Virus record (IMG/VR): IMGVR_UViG_3300033144_003744
Coordinates: 22,904-86,903 of that record
Reading direction: 5' to 3' (one strand)
Length of the DNA: 64,000 bases
Origin: a virus
Shown: positions 3,003 through 31,677 of the stretch, in pieces
Layout: the number at the start of each line of letters is the position of its first letter
How positions within the stretch are numbered: the first letter of the stretch is position 1
Program-made: the position numbers and the translations under genes
Notes under the pieces: generated by a model
Told to the model about the DNA's origin: nothing
Database searches by the model: none
What the model saw: only the letters and a program-made list of their open reading frames with translations

Positions 3003-3032
3003 ATACACTTAATATGTGCTTATCGTATATAT
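3003..3032 (-). promoter_or_regulatory. archaeal TATA promoter with a 26-bp element shared with 25295-25320
   Basis: TATATATACGATAAGCACATATTAAGTGTAT on the minus strand; 25/26 match to 25295-25320. Confidence 0.65.
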
Positions 3033-3083
3033 AGATATTCATTAGAAATATTTATATACTTAAATCAAACATATTATACTAAT

Positions 3084-10035: not shown

Positions 10036-10340
10036 TTGTTCACTTCCCTGAAATAATAATAACGATATATCGGATCTTCTGGATCTCTAATGGTTCCGAT
10101 ATAATTAGTATACAATCCCGCTGAAATATCCACATCATCACCATCAAGGGTGCTAACACAAAGGTCTTCAGTCTGTGCTCCAACTTCTCTATCCTCTGTA
10201 TCTGGTTCAGTCACAAGCCAATAGTCAGAAGCTAAGAAGCCAATTTCTAATGGATTCAATCCAAATTTTTCTTCAATTTCTATTTCAGTTAACATATTAT
10301 TTATCCTCCATTTTATAATCAAGACACTTACTAGTATCAT
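10032..10340 (-). CDS. hypothetical protein, paralog of 10424..10639
   Basis: EIGFLASDYWLV...IRDPEDPIYRYYY. Confidence 0.55.
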   Translation of the reverse strand: MILVSVLIIKWRINNMLTEIEIEEKFGLNPLEIGFLASDYWLVTEPDTEDREVGAQTEDLCVSTLDGDDVDISAGLYTNYIGTIRDPEDPIYRYYYFREVNK

Positions 10341-10423
10341 CTACTGTAATCAATTCCTTTATACATCTAAAATGTTTATTGAAAATACAATCTCCTGCTC
10401 CACATCCTTGTCTAGTTATTGTT

Positions 10424-11134: not shown

Positions 11135-11160
11135 GACACCAAATGGTGTCCTTTATATAC
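11135..11160. promoter_or_regulatory. palindromic operator next to a TATA box between divergent units
   Basis: GACACC-AAAT-GGTGTC (11135-11150) followed by TTTATATA. Confidence 0.55.
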
Positions 11161-11182
11161 TCATGTCGTCCATTTAATAGTT

Positions 11183-16633: not shown

Positions 16634-16739
16634 ATTTATTTCTCCTTTATATATTGTTTTATTGTTATAAATAATTAACCTATATTAAAATATTAATGGT
16701 GTTATTTATATACTTATTAATACCATATAGTATATTATC

Positions 16740-16820: not shown

Positions 16821-17337
16821 AAAGCAACCCTTATATACTTAAGGCAACAATATATTATATTGCGAAGCCTTAGTTGTAATCTGCCATAGTCGCAAAGATA
16901 TCATTTTTCTATAATTTCAATTACGTTATGAAGGATCGCTATTAATATTGTTTTATAAAATATACAACATTCTTTTGTCTCTTCATCATATGAAAGTTTA
17001 TCACCATTGATAAACCCAACACGTTCACCGTCTTTGTACACATGATAACCATGTGTGTAACCCTTTTTAATTGTTATCATTTTAATCTACTCCTTCTGGT
17101 TTACTACTATGACAATATAAATCTTGAAAACTTACTTCTAATTTAATTTCATCACATTGACATATACCATCAATATTATTTTTACATTCTTCATCACATT
17201 TTACTATTGTCATTTTAATTCACTTCATTAAATCCATCATACATAATAGCATCATAATACATATCACATTCACACCTTAAAAAACATTGTGAACATGGGG
17301 ATAGGTCGCAGTCGTTACATTTTTCTGAAGCTTTCAT

Positions 17338-23680: not shown

Positions 23681-24010
23681 TCACCCCTCCATTTTAACAA
23701 TAACTTTTTTAACTTCATCAAGATTATCAAATGTCATAAAAACAATTGTCATTTTTTGATTTTCAGATAATGAAGATTTTTTTAATAATTCGTTACGTTG
23801 TCGTTCAAGTGTAACGTGCGAGTGCAAAGATAATCCATAACTATATAAAAAATCGTCCGGTATTGGTTTTAATGATACCACTGTATGTTTACCGGCATTT
23901 GATTTTTTATCTTCATTAGAAGATTTTATTATCCATGCATCGACCTCATAAGTTGGAATACCCCATAAGTCCTTTGTTGATTGATATATCGAATATCTAT
24001 ATTCATTCAT
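23681..24010 (-). CDS. hypothetical protein
   Basis: 109 aa, GGTGA RBS. Confidence 0.55.
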   Translation of the reverse strand: MNEYRYSIYQSTKDLWGIPTYEVDAWIIKSSNEDKKSNAGKHTVVSLKPIPDDFLYSYGLSLHSHVTLERQRNELLKKSSLSENQKMTIVFMTFDNLDEVKKVIVKMEG

Positions 24011-24247
24011 GATTGATCACCTATGTATAAAATTACTACCTAATCTTTTCTTAGCTGCATCAATTCTTTTATCATGCCTTTTCAGTTTTGAAAAATGTCC
24101 CATACCCATTTTAAACACCACCAGAATTTAAAGCTATATATACAACAATTCCCCATAATGATATCATACATAATACACATAATCCACATACAATTTTTTG
24201 CATTATACTCATAATATATCCTCCGATTAATTTATACTTAAATTTAA

Positions 24248-24469
24248 TTATTCTATTGGTCCATATGCAGATTCAATAATTTCATAACATCTATCACAAT
24301 CTAAAGTACTTCCTTCCAAATAATAATCAAATACATAATCATTATATTCATTTACATTTAAACCCCTTGCGCATATTTCACACAATACTTCATTTGTTTT
24401 TTTATGCACAAAAATTAAGGGGTATGCATGTTCATGATCAAATATATCTACTGGTATTTCATTTATCAT
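24248..24469 (-). CDS. small Zn-finger protein, first gene after the hammerhead
   Basis: LCEICA...CDRCYEIIESAYG; GGAGG RBS. Confidence 0.65.
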   Translation of the reverse strand: MINEIPVDIFDHEHAYPLIFVHKKTNEVLCEICARGLNVNEYNDYVFDYYLEGSTLDCDRCYEIIESAYGPIE

Positions 24470-24485
24470 AATATTAGTCCTCCGA

Positions 24486-24545
24486 TATTTTTGTTTCGAC
24501 TTAATAAAGTCTCATCAGTAATGGTTTAACCATTAGACAAAAATA
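24486..24545 (-). ncRNA. type III hammerhead ribozyme
   Basis: UAUUUUUG-UC-UAAUGG(UUAAA)CCAUUA-CUGAUGA-GACUU(UAUU)AAGUC-GAAA-CAAAAAUA; complete core and three perfect stems. Confidence 0.93.
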
Positions 24546-24909
24546 ACCACATTAAACACCTAAAGGCTTTTCAAACCTTCGAAATGTTGGGCCTCTTTAT
24601 TTGCTTGTGATCATTCCACCCACCAGAGATTCAAAGGATTGTAGGAAATCCCTTGTACACAGGCTTAGAGACATTCGTATTACCTCATGACAATTCTAAG
24701 CGTCTATGTGTTGAGAGTATAAAGTGGAACTCATACCTACCTATGTATGTGTACATACTTTTAACTTCACTGCAATTTTTAGCCTGTCTTATTATCACCT
24801 GATTCTGATTACTTCGCAAATTTTTGAGTTCGTGTGTGTGTAGCCCTATCGGCACCGGTTAGGCACCTGGTTTTATCCCCTTACTTTGGGATACATTACA
24901 ATTGATTCC

Positions 24910-24925
24910 TAAGTATATATACTTA
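24910..24925. promoter_or_regulatory. perfect 16-bp palindrome containing a TATA box; likely promoter of the leftward early transcript
   Basis: TAAGTATATATACTTA. Confidence 0.55.
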
Positions 24926-25289
24926 TCGGTAGTAAAAACGATAGCAATAGATGCAGTTAAAAGAAAAAGAAAAAGTAAATCATATATGTAGTGCCCACAG
25001 TCTACCGATAGCGTTTTTATTAGACCTGGCCGTGCCCATGAAAACAGTATAAAAAAATTATCAAAAACAAGGTTTCATACTGTGAACTTGAATTGAAATA
25101 AATTTATGGGATACATTTAAATATTTAGTTAAGAATATTTAGAAAATGGTAAAAAATAAATAGCTTCTACCCAAAAAATTAGGGGGAGTATTTTAAACAC
25201 TATAATGTATTAAACTAACGATTTTTATTTTTTAAAATTTTTTAAAATATTTATACTATACAATAATTCTTTAAATGTAACCCAACACC

Positions 25290-25320
25290 TTTAAATACGA
25301 TAAGCACGTATTAAGTGTAT
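25290..25320 (+). promoter_or_regulatory. TATA promoter of the rightward unit with the shared 26-bp element
   Basis: TTTAAATACGATAAGCACGTATTAAGTGTAT running into an ATG at 25319. Confidence 0.65.
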
Positions 25321-25799
25321 GGATTATGAAGCATCAGATTCATATACTTATGATTATAGTATAGATAAACCATTTAAAGATAAAATGGGAAATGTATATG
25401 GAGTAATGGATGAATCTTATTTACTTCTAAATGTAACAAAGAAAGATTCTTTAAAACTGGAGATTACTTATGAATGAAATAGATAATAGAGACGAAGAAT
25501 TAATAGATGACTTTATGAAATGTATGATGTACTGATAGAGTTGGGATAATTATGATACAAGAATTTCTCACAATACCGTTTAATTTATATGATTGTATAA
25601 GACATCCAGAAAGATATCCTGAACTGTGTGAAGATATGTTAACTTTGGAGATTACTTATGAATAGAGATGAAATGACTAAAGATTTATCACAACAGATTT
25701 TAAAGGTGTTAGTTTATGGTAGTACTTTAGATCCAGATGATGTTGTATTTATAGATTATACAGATTTTGATAAAGATTCTATGGAGTTAAAGATTACTT

Positions 25800-26521: not shown

Positions 26522-27568
26522 AGGTGTGGGTATGTTTAGATTTAATATAGATGATTTAAAAGAAGTGCAATTTGAGTTAAATGGACTGATTGAAAGGATA
26601 GAACGTGTAAATAATAACAGTGAAATTATAGGTCAGAAAATGATAGATTCTGGTATTCCAGAAGAATATCTAATTAAAATAGTTGGAATTATAGCACAGG
26701 AACTTTATGAATAAATCTAATAGAGATAAATTAAAATCTTTAACAGATGAAGAATATAAATATCTTATGGATTCATTAGAAGAGAATGAAGAGTTGATGG
26801 TTAGTTTATCTAATGTAACTTTGGTGCATAAAAATGTATAAAATAGAACTTTTAACAGAAGATAACCGTATGCTTATGAAGCATGAAAACTTTGTAAAGT
26901 TTGTAGAAGGTCAAAGATTACAAGTTTTTGATGAGAGAGGTGAAACGGTGTATGCTGTTTATAATGGAATCATAGTGGAGAGGATTGAATGATTACACAA
27001 AGGATTATGAGTTTTATGTATGATATAACTCCATTTGTTATTATTTTTTCTGTAATGTAGGTGAATAAATGTTTAAAGTAGAAATGAATTCGATAAAAAT
27101 GACAGTATGGATGGAAAAAGAGGAGTTTAAAAACTTTATGAATGATAATTTATTATCCGTTTTTACAGATGGTGAATTGATATTTACGATGTATAATGGC
27201 TTTGTAATTGGATGTATAAGGCATGATAAAAAAATTACAAATATTAAATGTATTAACTGAAATAGGTTGGGGCTTATTTGTTATGTTTCCAGCAATGGTT
27301 ATAATTATAAGTCCTTCTTTATAATTGGTGATAATATAATATCTTATCCAATAGCATTAATATATGTTGGGTTAATTGGAATTTCTATATATATTACACA
27401 AAATCTATGGTGTTTATTAGCATTATTTTTTGCACCAAGTGTAAGTATAGGTAATTAATATGAAAGATAAAATAGAATGGAAAGGAATGATGATTCCAGA
27501 TAAAGATTGTTTTAGGGAAGAAAAGAAATGTACACCAGATTGTCCTTCATATGATATGGGGTGGTTAT

Positions 27569-28201
27569 ATGATTGAATTGTGGAAAACACAAGTCGGTTC
27601 TCATCTTTGGAAGATGAATCACGAAGGTAGTGATAATGATTATTTTGTTGTGCATATTGCTCCCTCTGAAGATATTTTAAATGGTAGTATTACTAGGTTG
27701 AGTTCCAAGGTTATGAAGATTAAAGGGGATGATTTTGTATCTCATGAAGTTGGAAGGGTTGTAGATGAGCTTATTAAAGGTAATATTAACTTTTTAACTG
27801 GTATTATGTCTGATATTATTGTATATGATAGGTCTTGTTATCTGTATGAATTGAGGGATTTAGTTAAAGAGTATGGACAGACTAAAGCTTGTGTACATAG
27901 TATTAAGGGTCTAGCGATGCATAATTATAAAAAATATGTTTTAGGCAATAAAAATGATCCAATGATTAGTAAAAGATGTGGAATTATTAATAGAAGTTTA
28001 TTATTTGGTATTAATTTATTAAGTGGCGAAGGATTTAAGTTTAATCCAGTAATAAACCCAACACCGAAAAATACATGTTATCTATTTAAAGGATTTGAAT
28101 ATGCAGTTAAAAATAGTTCATTCCCAGAAAAAATAAATTCCGAACCATTTAGAGATTGGTTGTATAATCTTAGATTAGATGAACTTAATGAAAAGATATA
28201 A
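27569..28201 (+). CDS. Pol-beta-family nucleotidyltransferase (PF10127/RlaP-like)
   Basis: VGSHLWKMNHEGSDND(Y), HEV..ELIKGNIN. Confidence 0.8.
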   Translation: MIELWKTQVGSHLWKMNHEGSDNDYFVVHIAPSEDILNGSITRLSSKVMKIKGDDFVSHEVGRVVDELIKGNINFLTGIMSDIIVYDRSCYLYELRDLVKEYGQTKACVHSIKGLAMHNYKKYVLGNKNDPMISKRCGIINRSLLFGINLLSGEGFKFNPVINPTPKNTCYLFKGFEYAVKNSSFPEKINSEPFRDWLYNLRLDELNEKI

Positions 28202-30171: not shown

Positions 30172-31413
30172 ATGAATTTATTAAAAAAATTACCAGACTC
30201 ATATATAGTAGGTGGAGCAGTAAGAGATACTATCATGGGTAGAAATCCAAAAGATATTGATATAGTAACTTCAATGCTTCCAGAGGATGTATTAAAGAAT
30301 TTTGACTCTCATCCATTGGGTCAGAAATTTGGTACAGTTGTAGTAAGAGACGATATCGGTGAAGTAGAAGTCACTACAATGCGTAAAGATTTGACAGGTG
30401 GTAGACATCCAGTAGTTGAGTTTACTGATAAAATTAGAGAAGATTTATCCAGAAGAGATTTTAGAATGAATGCAATGGCTATGAATGAATATGGTAGAAT
30501 TATTGATCCATTTAAGGGTCAGCAGGATATTATAAACAAACGTATTTCTAGTGTTGAAGATCCTTTAATCACTGTACACCCAATACACGGGGATCCACTG
30601 AGAGTACTTAGAGCAATTAGATTTTCTATTATTTTAGATTTTGATATTGAACAAGAATTACAAGTAGCAATAATGGATTCCGATCTTTCTACTTTATCTG
30701 GAGAAAGAATATACTCTGAACTCAAGCAGATGTTTAGTGAGCCTGAGGAAGCCATGAGAGCTTTATATTTCTACAATGTATTGTCCAAGGTACTACCGGA
30801 GGTAGATGATTTATCATGGTGTGTACAGAGTGTTCAGTGGCACCCTGAGGGAGATGCATTAGAGCACACCATTCTTGTAATGGAAAGAGTAAAGGAACAT
30901 GGTCCATTAGCTGTAATGGCCGCTATGTTACATGATATAGGTAAACCTGTAACCAGGGAAGGAATGACCTATCATGGCCATGCAAAAGCTGGAGTAGAAA
31001 TTGCAGAATCTATTATGAGAAGATTGGGTAGACCTAAAATTGAAGTTGAAGCTGTTAAATTTGTAGTAGAAAATCATATGAAAATTAAAGAAATAGAAAA
31101 TATGAAAGTATCTAAATGTAGAAAATTATATGATAGTCCACATTTTGATTTGCTTATGTTGATTGCCAGGGCTGATAATGCAGATAAACATAATGATTCT
31201 ATGTTTGAATTTATTGAACAAGATAATTTAGTTAAAGAAATTAATATTGAACCTTTGCTTGATGGATATGATCTAATAGATTTAGGTCTAAATGGTTCTG
31301 ATATTGGTAATGTTCAAAAAATATTAAAAGAATTACAATTAGAAAAAATTATTAGAACTAAAACTGAAGCTATTAGTTATGTAAATATATTTAAATATTT
31401 AGGTGGTGAATAA
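30172..31413 (+). CDS. cca: class II CCA-adding/poly(A) polymerase-family nucleotidyltransferase with HD domain
   Basis: VGGAVRD..DID, RRDF, DPLRVLRAIRF, HPEGDA..HT, LHDIGKP, HA..G, HM. Confidence 0.9.
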   Translation: MNLLKKLPDSYIVGGAVRDTIMGRNPKDIDIVTSMLPEDVLKNFDSHPLGQKFGTVVVRDDIGEVEVTTMRKDLTGGRHPVVEFTDKIREDLSRRDFRMNAMAMNEYGRIIDPFKGQQDIINKRISSVEDPLITVHPIHGDPLRVLRAIRFSIILDFDIEQELQVAIMDSDLSTLSGERIYSELKQMFSEPEEAMRALYFYNVLSKVLPEVDDLSWCVQSVQWHPEGDALEHTILVMERVKEHGPLAVMAAMLHDIGKPVTREGMTYHGHAKAGVEIAESIMRRLGRPKIEVEAVKFVVENHMKIKEIENMKVSKCRKLYDSPHFDLLMLIARADNADKHNDSMFEFIEQDNLVKEINIEPLLDGYDLIDLGLNGSDIGNVQKILKELQLEKIIRTKTEAISYVNIFKYLGGE

Positions 31414-31539: not shown

Positions 31540-31677
31540 GTAACTCATTCTCTTTTTTAGGAAACGCTTATATACTTAACCTAACAATATATATTACTTA
31601 GAGGATAAATAAAACTTTATCTCACCTAAATAGCGATTGCTATTTAGTTACTATTTTATAATAATTAGAGTGATACT

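What the first reader, a model, noticed from the sequence alone, without database searches (positions are those of the whole stretch)
24486..24545. Type III hammerhead ribozyme at the head of the early operon
Seen: on the minus strand, stem III, a GUC cleavage triplet (cut 3' of position 24536), stem I, CUGAUGA, stem II and GAAA are all perfectly formed. The element ends 2-3 nt before the GGAGG RBS of the first leftward gene. Known: cleavage leaves 5'-OH and 2',3'-cyclic phosphate ends. Inference: it splits the primary transcript into an upstream RNA and a 5'-OH early mRNA, which may resist 5'-monophosphate-dependent exonucleases. Hammerheads are rarely reported from archaeal viruses.
Basis: partly seen in the sequence, partly recalled or inferred. 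Interest (0 to 1): 0.8.

Follow-up and report, generated by a model that had tools for sequence, protein, structure and literature searches.

The report
Hammerhead ribozyme before viral early genes
A textbook-shaped self-cutting hammerhead RNA sits between a conserved non-coding leader RNA and the first gene of the leftward operon of an uncultured tailed virus from marine sediment. It is a good new example of an arrangement known in phages and archaeal viruses since 2011, not a new kind of system.

Summary
The minus strand 24545-24486 folds as a complete type III hammerhead with a fully consensus core. C17 is at 24536, and the element ends 2 nt before GGAGG. Rfam RF00008 gives 41 bits (E 1.4e-7 locally, 5.6e-9 genome-wide). 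That is below Rfam's curated cut-off of 48.5, and a whole-window search lost the match in its filters. A descriptor of my own found this one site in the 86.9-kb genome, against 1 hit in 300 shuffled genomes.

One related sediment contig keeps GUC and stem-loop I at the same place, with two compensatory base-pair changes. Other related contigs carry a T6-G-T6 tract there instead.

The ribozyme lies about 355 nt downstream of a palindromic TATA-like box. It follows an ORF-free stretch that is 85-97% conserved in the sediment contigs laid on it.

Most likely it cuts a long primary transcript into a leader ncRNA (2',3'-cyclic phosphate end) and a 5'-OH mRNA with a short defined leader. Cleavage, the transcription start and the stability benefit are untested.

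The closest precedent is the hammerhead just upstream of the helicase gene of haloviruses HF1/HF2 (Perreault 2011). The archaeal host is only tentative.

Verdict: new member of a known kind. This scan has reported virus hammerheads before, on other DNA.

The parts
24486..24545 (-). Complete type III hammerhead ribozyme motif
   Evidence: Sequence read. RF00008 gives 41 bits over the full model. The minimum-energy fold equals the hammerhead fold. It is the only descriptor hit in the genome.
24537..24545 (-). Stem III, 5' strand (UAUUUUUGU). It contains a T5 run and overlaps the predicted closing helix of the upstream RNA.
   Evidence: Pairs with 24486-24494.
24536..24536 (-). C17. The predicted cut is 3' of this base, between 24536 and 24535.
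   Evidence: Position in the GUC triplet of the RF00008 alignment.
24519..24535 (-). Stem-loop I (UAAUGG-UUAAA-CCAUUA)
   Evidence: In a related contig the same hairpin reads UACCGG-UUAGA-CCGGUA, which is two compensatory pair changes (loose end of runs X1/X2, read by eye).
24512..24518 (-). Core CUGAUGA (C3 to A9)
24498..24511 (-). Stem-loop II (GACUU-UAUU-AAGUC), first pair G10.1-C11.1
24486..24497 (-). Core GAAA (24497-24494) and stem III 3' strand (24494-24486). This A-rich tract lies directly before the Shine-Dalgarno sequence.
24479..24483 (-). GGAGG Shine-Dalgarno sequence, 9 nt before the ATG
   Evidence: Similar GGAG/GGTGAT words stand before many genes of this genome.
24248..24469 (-). 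First leftward gene: 73 aa, two CxxC pairs, no Pfam family
   Evidence: ORF. No Pfam hit. An 89% identical protein exists in Logan and ENA assemblies, in a cluster of 3.
24546..24893 (-). ORF-free, conserved leader / candidate ncRNA that the ribozyme would release. The 5' end is inferred, not mapped.
   Evidence: Contigs of runs X1/X2, X3 and X5 cover 24539/41-24930 at about 85-97% identity, with 1-2-nt indels. The hairpin 24659-24630 has compensatory changes in X3 (by eye). No Rfam family at E<=10.
24910..24925 (.). Palindromic TATA-like box TAAGTATATATACTTA, the candidate promoter of the leftward transcript
   Evidence: Self-complementary 16-mer. AGTATATA/TATATACT words are 8-9 times enriched in non-coding DNA of this genome. 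Function is inferred.

Best explanation
This is a genuine self-cleaving type III hammerhead ribozyme, transcribed as part of one long leftward primary transcript.

Proposed sequence of events:
- The transcript probably starts about 25 nt downstream of the palindromic TATA-like box at 24910-24925 (inferred).
- It runs through a conserved, ORF-free leader of about 355 nt (24893-24546), then the ribozyme, then the Shine-Dalgarno sequence and the 73-aa first gene.
- Once stem III forms, the RNA cuts itself after C17 (24536).
- The upstream product is the leader ncRNA, ending ...UUAUUUUUGUC with a 2',3'-cyclic phosphate.
- The downstream product is the early mRNA. It has a 5'-OH, two small hairpins (stems I and II) and 66 nt of defined leader.
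- When the AU-rich stem III melts, the A-rich tract ACAAAAAUA directly before GGAGG becomes single-stranded.

The ribozyme thus acts as a built-in processing site. It gives the ncRNA a defined 3' end and insulates translation of the first gene from the long structured leader.

What is shown: the motif, its statistical support, its position, and partial conservation in a relative.
What is inferred: transcription start, cleavage in vivo, and which product matters.

My odds: it self-cleaves in vitro, about 0.85. It works in vivo as the ncRNA/mRNA separator described, about 0.6.
For: 1. All core positions are consensus, and the three pairs next to the core are standard: U1.1-A2.1, G10.1-C11.1 and A15.1-U16.1. 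These are the acceptance criteria quoted from Perreault 2011 (PMC3088659).
2. RF00008 gives 41 bits, E 5.6e-9 for the genome, and this is the only match. My descriptor gave 1 hit in the genome against 1 in 300 shuffles.
3. The hammerhead fold is the minimum-energy fold of the element alone. In contexts of 171-431 nt it lies only 0.4-2.6 kcal/mol above the minimum.
4. In the contig of runs X1/X2, homology to the window ends at 24541. The contig runs on with GUC, a 6-bp stem I in which two pairs are changed on both sides (A-U to C-G, U-A to C-G), a 5-nt loop with one change, and then C (read by eye).
5. The stretch upstream (24539/41-24930) is held at about 85-97% identity in contigs of the four runs laid. 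These contigs carry 1-2-nt indels inside the only two ORFs there, so it is not coding. One of its hairpins keeps its loop and a G-U pair that exists only on the minus strand, while two pairs change on both sides (by eye).
6. There is no sigma-70-like enrichment in the intergenic region: 7 sites against 9.1 +/- 3.4 in shuffles. I saw no TATA-like AGTATATA box between 24910 and the ribozyme.
7. Precedent: HF1/HF2, and five IMG/VR type II hammerheads each followed closely by an SD-like word and a start codon.
Against: - The score is below Rfam's gathering cut-off (41 against 48.5). Whole-window scans list nothing.
- No cleavage assay and no RNA data: no RNA run was listed as a holder.
- Only one relative shows a hammerhead, only its first 21 nt are visible, and X1 and X2 are probably one data set filed twice.
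- Two other related contigs (X3) run on at 24539 into a T6-G-T6 tract with no GUC there, so the ribozyme is not universal at this spot.
- In longer contexts the predicted minimum-energy fold pairs 24551-24540 with 24617-24606, which removes six of the nine stem III pairs.
- The single-sequence fold of the leader is not significant: z -1.19, with 11 of 100 shuffles folding as well.
- The T5 run inside stem III could terminate an archaeal polymerase before the ribozyme is made.
Confidence: 0.6

Rival explanations
1. The selected benefit is mRNA stability: cleavage replaces the 5' triphosphate with a 5'-OH, which is a poor substrate for 5'-monophosphate-dependent decay enzymes. The upstream RNA is only a by-product.
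For: The ribozyme sits directly before the SD sequence of the first gene. The same placement is seen in HF2 and in 5 of 5 type II loci fetched. The preference of RNase J / RNase E type enzymes for 5'-monophosphate ends is established knowledge, recalled here and not tested.
Against: - A primary transcript already carries a protective triphosphate, so a start close to the SD sequence would do the same job without a 355-nt leader.
- The leader is conserved in related contigs, with compensatory changes, which argues that it is a product in its own right.
- No decay data exist.
Confidence: 0.15
2. The ribozyme is a regulated switch. The closing helix of the leader RNA (24617-24606 with 24551-24540) and stem III of the hammerhead are mutually exclusive. 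A factor, temperature or the speed of transcription would then decide whether the transcript is cut and the A-rich tract and SD sequence are freed.
For: The predicted minimum-energy folds of 171-431-nt contexts use the rival helix. The two states differ by only 0.4-2.6 kcal/mol. Perreault 2011 discusses regulated hammerheads for HF1/HF2.
Against: This rests on thermodynamic prediction alone. The rival helix is G-U rich and has no covariation data. I could not see the relatives' sequences for this helix.
Confidence: 0.1
3. The motif is inactive or a leftover. It looks like a hammerhead but is not used, or it is not transcribed intact because the T5 run at 24543-24539 ends the leader RNA and the operon has its own start further down.
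For: - The score is below the Rfam cut-off.
- X3 relatives have a T-rich tract instead of a ribozyme at this boundary.
- Archaeal RNA polymerase stops at runs of five to six T (PMC2253867, abstract seen in the listing).
- The stems are AU-rich.
Against: - 60 nt with a perfect core and 20 perfect pairs is unlikely to persist unused: E 5.6e-9, and 1 hit in 300 shuffles even with a much looser descriptor.
- A relative keeps stem I through compensatory changes.
- I saw no promoter-like box between the ribozyme and the ATG; only 16 nt separate them.
Confidence: 0.1

Closest known systems
HHphage, the hammerhead of haloarchaeal tailed viruses HF1 and HF2 (Perreault et al. 2011, PMC3088659; annotated in GenBank AF222060.2 at 10292-10359)
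   Same: [quoted passage not shown] According to the paper, the helicase gene is the first of several ORFs of a polycistronic early transcript whose 5' end maps within 3 nt of the cleavage site.
   Different: HHphage is annotated as type II and carries a two-nucleotide insertion in the core, linked to high salt. It follows a coding gene directly. The element here is type III with a consensus core, sits in a low-GC virus from marine sediment, and follows a conserved non-coding leader of about 355 nt.
Hammerheads flanking genes in prophages and phages (Perreault et al. 2011), and the type II family found here in five IMG/VR contigs (L045-L049)
   Same: The ribozyme is placed between transcription-unit parts and is thought to process long viral transcripts. 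In 5 of 5 fetched loci the ribozyme is followed within roughly 25-35 nt by an SD-like word and ATG/GTG (by eye). Their stem-loop I is letter for letter the one seen in the X1/X2 relative of this virus.
   Different: Those are type II (RF02276, 39.3-43.2 bits, above the cut-off of 37), GC-richer, often in arrays, and show no similarity to the leader RNA. Here there is one type III copy in the genome.
Rfam RF00008, Hammerhead_3 (type III hammerheads of viroids, satellites, and eukaryotic and bacterial genomes)
   Same: The match covers the full model length. All core letters and all three helices are present, and stem III is open.
   Different: The score is 7.5 bits under the family's gathering cut-off. 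The stems are AU-rich, loop I is larger than the consensus and loop II is shorter.
Hammerhead-interspersed vrRNA arrays of VIPR systems in phages and archaeal viruses (bioRxiv 10.64898/2026.04.26.720920)
   Same: A virus-encoded hammerhead defines the end of a non-coding RNA (passages read).
   Different: vrRNAs have 9-16 YNNGG repeats. The leader here has none, and the whole genome has only two runs of 3 units. No Vipr-like gene was identified. It is not a member.
RiboJ-type ribozyme insulators of synthetic biology (recalled: Lou et al. 2012; only secondary papers seen in the listing)
   Same: A hammerhead placed directly before the ribosome-binding site removes a variable upstream leader, so that translation no longer depends on it.
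   Different: That is an engineered part based on a satellite-RNA ribozyme. This is a functional analogy only, and nothing was tested here.

Membership tests
Hammerhead ribozyme, type III (Rfam RF00008) | Conserved core: C3 U4 G5 A6 N7 G8 A9, G12 A13 A14, A15.1-U16.1, H17 | tested here: met
   CUGAUGA at 24518-24512, GAAA at 24497-24494, U16.1 at 24537 and C17 at 24536. All match the upper-case consensus in the cmscan alignment.
Hammerhead ribozyme, type III (Rfam RF00008) | Three helices around the core, with standard pairs next to it (1.1-2.1, 10.1-11.1, 15.1-16.1) | tested here: met
   Stem I has 6 bp, stem II 5 bp and stem III 9 bp, all Watson-Crick. U-A, G-C and A-U pairs lie next to the core. 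These meet the criteria quoted from PMC3088659.
Hammerhead ribozyme, type III (Rfam RF00008) | Topology: stems I and II closed by loops, stem III open | tested here: met
   The loops are 5 nt and 4 nt. The two strands of stem III are the 5' and 3' ends of the element.
Hammerhead ribozyme, type III (Rfam RF00008) | Score at or above the curated gathering cut-off (48.5 bits) | tested here: not met
   41.0 bits. Nothing is listed at gathering level or in the filtered whole-window E-value scan.
Hammerhead ribozyme, type III (Rfam RF00008) | Helices kept by compensatory change in relatives | tested here: inconclusive
   Stem I has 2 of 6 pairs changed on both sides in one relative, of which only 21 nt are visible. 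Stems II and III were not seen in any relative. The contigs could not be fetched.
Hammerhead ribozyme, type III (Rfam RF00008) | Loop I - loop II tertiary contact needed for fast cleavage at low Mg2+ | not testable with these tools
   The stem lengths and the loops (UUAAA, UAUU) are of the usual size. No tool here models the contact.
Hammerhead ribozyme, type III (Rfam RF00008) | Site-specific self-cleavage giving 2',3'-cyclic phosphate and 5'-OH ends | not testable with these tools
   This needs in vitro transcription or RNA end mapping. No RNA run holding the stretch was listed.
VIPR vrRNA processed by hammerheads | 9-16 tandem YNNGG repeats next to a vipr gene | tested here: not met
   A regex for three or more GGYNN units found 2 runs of 3 units in the genome (25022-25036 minus strand, and one outside the window) and none in 24546-24893. 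The repeat number is taken from the preprint.

The most novel reading that the evidence does not exclude
The real novelty may be the partner of the ribozyme. This is an RNA of about 355 nt and of no known family, transcribed from a palindromic TATA box and kept at 85-97% identity in contigs from several marine-sediment and cold-seep samples. Its 3' end would be made by interchangeable modules in different relatives: an AU-rich type III hammerhead here, a hammerhead with the common phage-type stem-loop I in another, and a plain oligo-T terminator in others. In that reading the hammerhead is a 3'-end maturation device for a new class of early viral ncRNA, possibly in an archaeal virus. The T5 run inside stem III would make termination and ribozyme cleavage give almost the same ncRNA end, so that only read-through transcripts feed the early genes.
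Probability: 0.3. Interest if true: 0.6.

Novelty: new member of a known kind. Interest (0 to 1): 0.35.

Why it matters
If active, this is a clean natural case of one ribozyme doing two jobs at a single cut. It would finish a conserved viral non-coding RNA and create a short, defined leader for the first early gene. That is the logic synthetic biologists built into ribozyme insulators and ribozyme-flanked guide RNAs.

It would also extend virus-borne hammerheads at operon heads from haloviruses to a low-GC lineage of tailed viruses from anoxic marine sediments, probably viruses of Thermoplasmata-like archaea.

It does not change what is known about hammerheads themselves. The open and more interesting question is what the conserved leader RNA does.

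Tried and rejected
**Searches for relatives' DNA**
- The 73-aa protein found nothing in viral contigs.
- TerL alone found nothing in viral contigs.
- An 18-mer of the leader gave 10 loci, none with wider similarity by blastn.
- A 20-mer in metagenome contigs gave 3 loci, which matched over only 20-24 nt.
- The window's own stem-I/core 28-mer gave 0 loci.
- A structure-aware pattern of three leader words gave 0 loci.
- A TerL alignment found only 23-29% identical relatives in viral contigs.
The Logan and ENA contigs encoding P0001 and P0003, and those holding the leader, therefore could not be read.

**Core pattern with this element's stem II**
It gave 14 loci. At gathering level these 14 loci gave only 5 tRNA matches and no hammerhead family. 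I read one locus (L005), found it unrelated, and did not follow the other 13.

**Sequencing runs**
- No RNA holder was listed.
- 20 rows from 11 studies held small shares (0.05-0.10). I laid only 4 of them, so the other 16 are not used for any claim.
- Parts of the stretch without cover (for example most of 24300-24516 in X1-X3) are not used as evidence of lower conservation.

**Searches in cellular genomes**
- No hammerhead and no leader DNA were found in the MAG that holds the TerL relatives.
- Leader DNA was searched in 197 genomes of that MAG's class. 10 genomes gave matches of 26-58 nt, 9 of them in the AT-rich part 25038-25280 and one of 26 nt at 24959-24984. I take all of these as chance.
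- 0 of 401 genomes of its phylum matched.
- RF00008 matched 0 of 151 class genomes, with nothing ringing in the controls either.
- These results mean not found in the genomes searched; they do not show absence.

**Identity of the leader RNA**
- No Rfam family at E<=10 in 24480-25330 other than the hammerhead.
- No Rfam family at gathering level anywhere in the genome.
- No tRNA genes.
- The single-sequence fold is not significant on either strand: z -1.19 on the minus strand and -0.33 on the plus strand.
- The VIPR vrRNA idea was rejected.

**Host**
- There is no DNA match in the phage collection.
- The best TerL match there is about 26-27% identical, to Bacteroides phages and an unnamed faecal-sample phage record.
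- The protein atlas gave only viral and bacterial ligase clusters.

**Idea not tested**
The virus's own class II CCA-adding enzyme with an HD domain or its RlaP-like enzyme might heal or extend the cyclic-phosphate end.

**Supplements**
Dataset S1 of PMC3088659 (hammerhead alignments) and the supplementary tables of PMC13481778 (deep-sea hammerheads) could already hold this or a related sequence.

Full report
**The motif.**
On the minus strand, 24545-24486 reads UAUUUUUGU-C-UAAUGG-UUAAA-CCAUUA-CUGAUGA-GACUU-UAUU-AAGUC-GAAA-CAAAAAUA (coordinates checked). This is a complete type III hammerhead.
- Stem III has 9 bp (24545-24537 with 24494-24486), including A15.1-U16.1.
- C17 is at 24536.
- Stem I has 6 bp with a 5-nt loop.
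- The core is CUGAUGA.
- Stem II has 5 bp, starts with G10.1-C11.1 and has a 4-nt loop.
- GAAA follows.
- GGAGG (24483-24479) follows after 2 nt, and the ATG of a 73-aa ORF is at 24469.

**More than chance?**
Rfam's Hammerhead_3 model matches 24543-24488 from its first to its last position at 41.0 bits. E is 1.4e-7 for a 501-nt search against all families, 2.3e-7 for 851 nt, and 5.6e-9 for a single-family search of the virus's whole 86,903-nt record, where it is the only match.

The element's minimum-energy fold is exactly the hammerhead secondary structure: -14.3 kcal/mol, z -1.98, with 7 of 200 shuffles folding as well. A loose descriptor of my own (stems of at least 4, 4 and 5 bp) hits this site and nothing else in the genome. 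It hit once in 300 dinucleotide-preserving shuffles of the genome.

Three results count against.
- The score is 7.5 bits short of Rfam's curated cut-off, so the default scan lists nothing.
- A whole-window scan at E<=0.1 also listed nothing. Given the local E-values this must be a loss in the speed filters, but it means a routine annotation would miss the element.
- The bare core pattern is no rarer than chance: 2 found against 1.39 expected.

**The genome and the operon.**
The window is bases 22904-86903 of an IMG/VR virus record with an exact 114-bp terminal repeat. It has about 31% G+C.

It encodes a large terminase, a portal protein, an ATP-dependent DNA ligase and a class II CCA-adding enzyme with an HD domain. 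It also encodes anaerobic ribonucleotide reductase, a C5 methylase, a Cas4-like nuclease and a family B polymerase in two pieces.

Genes left of about 24.5 kb lie on the minus strand and genes right of 25.3 kb on the plus strand. The cumulative GC skew has its minimum there. The ribozyme therefore sits at the head of the leftward gene block. That block begins with small genes, GP88, SprT-like and LPD29 domains, and leads on to the replication genes. Calling it 'early' is an inference from this content.

**What lies upstream.**
Between the ribozyme and the rightward genes are about 780 nt with no credible ORF.

A perfect palindrome, TAAGTATATATACTTA, lies at 24910-24925. AGTATATA/TATATACT words are 8-9 times enriched in non-coding DNA of this genome and recur in several intergenic regions. 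A sigma-70 scan of the region finds no more sites than shuffles do: 7 against 9.1 +/- 3.4.

I therefore place the likely start of the leftward transcript near 24893. This gives a leader of about 355 nt before the ribozyme. It is an inference, and no RNA data were available.

**Relatives.**
Contigs of four public runs were laid on 24000-25400. X1 and X2 give identical contigs and are probably one data set filed twice. X3 is labelled cold seep, and X1 and X5 marine sediment.

The contigs cover 24539/41-24930 as follows:
- 97% identity (X1: 7 differences in 240);
- about 93-95% (X3: 20 differences and 7 gaps in 392);
- 92% (X3: 7 in 91);
- about 83-93% (X5, four pieces).

The 1-2-nt insertions and deletions fall inside the only two ORFs of the stretch, so it is non-coding.

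Three contigs break away from the window at 24539-24541, inside the 5' strand of stem III.

The X1/X2 contig goes on for its last 21 letters with GUC, then UACCGG-UUAGA-CCGGUA, then C, when read on the minus strand (read by eye). This is the cleavage triplet, a stem I in which two of six pairs are changed on both sides while pairing is kept, a loop with one change, and the first core letter. It is the only direct comparative support for the ribozyme, and it covers only stem I.

The two X3 contigs go on instead with a T6-G-T6 tract and no GUC (consensus agreement 0.7). If the host is an archaeon, that tract looks like a plain terminator. Runs of five to six T stop archaeal polymerase (PMC2253867), and U-tracts act together with aCPSF1 (PMC8716108). 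I saw only the abstracts of these two papers, in the listing.

A hairpin of the leader (24659-24630) keeps its loop UCCUAC and a G-U pair that exists only on the minus strand, while two pairs change on both sides in an X3 contig (by eye). That speaks for an RNA made from the minus strand.

**A side result.**
The 21 letters of the X1/X2 loose end occur exactly in five IMG/VR contigs. These are unrelated to the leader.

All five are type II hammerheads above Rfam's cut-off, at 39.3-43.2 bits against 37. Each is followed within roughly 25-35 nt by an SD-like word and ATG or GTG (by eye).

So the relative carries the common phage-type stem-loop I, and a hammerhead just before a ribosome-binding site is a widespread viral layout.

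The 40 nt upstream of GUC in the window contain no CGAAAC followed by a closed stem III hairpin. The X1 contig is 97% identical there. The relative's ribozyme therefore cannot be type II at that place.

**Folding in context.**
In transcripts of 171-431 nt the predicted minimum-energy fold pairs 24551-24540 with 24617-24606, as a closing helix of the leader's last domain. That removes six stem III pairs.

Forcing the hammerhead fold costs only 0.4, 2.6 and 1.7 kcal/mol in the three contexts. The active fold is thus accessible, and a competition between the two states is possible but unproven.

**Host.**
- TerL has nine relatives at 51-90% identity in ENA, Logan and JGI assemblies. Below these comes a group at about 30-34% identity, several of them on marine contigs of roughly 90 kb.
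- In the species-representative genomes, TerL relatives of 67% and 62% identity lie on two 5-kb contigs binned in 'Thermoplasmatales archaeon CSMAG_1140'. This is a binning association, not a provirus junction.
- No cultured phage is close.
- The TATA-like boxes fit an archaeal host. The bacterial-type CCA enzyme does not.
- I put an archaeal host at roughly 0.6.

**Known things.**
Perreault et al. 2011 (PMC3088659; passages read) described hundreds of bacterial hammerheads, many in prophages, where they flank genes and are proposed to process long transcripts.

They also described HHphage of haloviruses HF1/HF2. It lies 13 nt before the start codon of a helicase gene, which is the first ORF of an early polycistronic transcript whose 5' end maps within 3 nt of the cleavage site. 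The HF2 record annotates it as type II at 10292-10359, before the CDS at 10371.

A 2026 preprint reports hammerheads that separate guide-like vrRNAs in phages and archaeal viruses. The leader here lacks their repeats.

A 2026 survey counted 259 type III hammerheads in deep-sea sediment RNA viromes (PMC13481778, passages).

This scan itself has several followed-up virus hammerheads on other DNA, all judged new examples of the known kind.

**Verdict.**
The motif is real and very probably a working ribozyme. The best reading is a processing site that separates a conserved leader ncRNA from the early mRNA and leaves a short defined leader before the SD sequence.

This is a new member of a known kind, with modest interest. 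The conserved leader RNA and the apparent swap of ribozyme and terminator at its 3' end are the parts worth following.

Noticed in passing
window 24546-24930, minus strand: An ORF-free stretch is held at about 85-97% identity in sediment and cold-seep contigs of the four runs laid, with frame-breaking indels. The hairpin at 24659-24630 shows two compensatory pair changes and a minus-strand-only G-U pair. It matches no Rfam family. This is a candidate new viral ncRNA.
   Followed up: partly
window 24930-25320: The rest of the divergent intergenic region is also covered by related contigs of runs X3 and X5. It holds the words ACCGATA and CGTTTTTA on both sides of the TATA palindrome, and an AT-rich part at 25090-25290. 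It coincides with the minimum of the cumulative GC skew, so a replication origin is possible.
   Followed up: no
window 25295-25320 (+) and 3003-3028 (-): A 26-nt repeat (25 of 26 identical) sits directly after a TATA-like box at both places. At one place it precedes the first rightward ORF and at the other a non-coding stretch. It looks like a shared promoter or start module.
   Followed up: no
window 16707-16714, 16832-16839, 31569-31576, 3053-3060, 11154-11161: There are recurrent AGTATATA boxes in intergenic DNA. Two of them (16839 and 31576) share a longer module of the form AATATATATTGTT-N5/6-TTAAGTATATAAG. These are archaeal-style TATA candidates.
   Followed up: partly
L045-L049 (IMG/VR contigs): Five type II hammerheads (RF02276, 39-43 bits) share an identical stem-loop I, and each is followed closely by an SD-like word and a start codon. 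In 4 of 5, the loop I letters UUAGA are complementary to UCUAA in the 3' tail, which would be the known type II pseudoknot (by eye).
   Followed up: partly
L008 279-541 and L012 1153-1415: A match to the CTGATGAG...CGAAAC core pattern lies about 75 nt upstream of a pair of tRNA genes in two IMG/VR contigs. No hammerhead family reached its gathering score there.
   Followed up: no
window 25022-25036, minus strand: Three tandem GGYNN units occur here, one of only two such runs in the genome. This is far short of the 9-16 units of VIPR vrRNAs.
   Followed up: yes
L032 and L033 (genome contigs): Two different TerL relatives (67% and 62% identity) lie on 5-kb contigs binned in one Thermoplasmatales MAG from a cold-seep catalogue. 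This is the only host hint, and it may be a binning artefact.
   Followed up: partly
window 27551-28201 and 30172-31413: An RlaP-like RNA-repair nucleotidyltransferase and a class II CCA-adding enzyme with an HD domain lie 3-6 kb from the ribozyme. A link to the cyclic-phosphate end left by cleavage is conceivable but untested.
   Followed up: no
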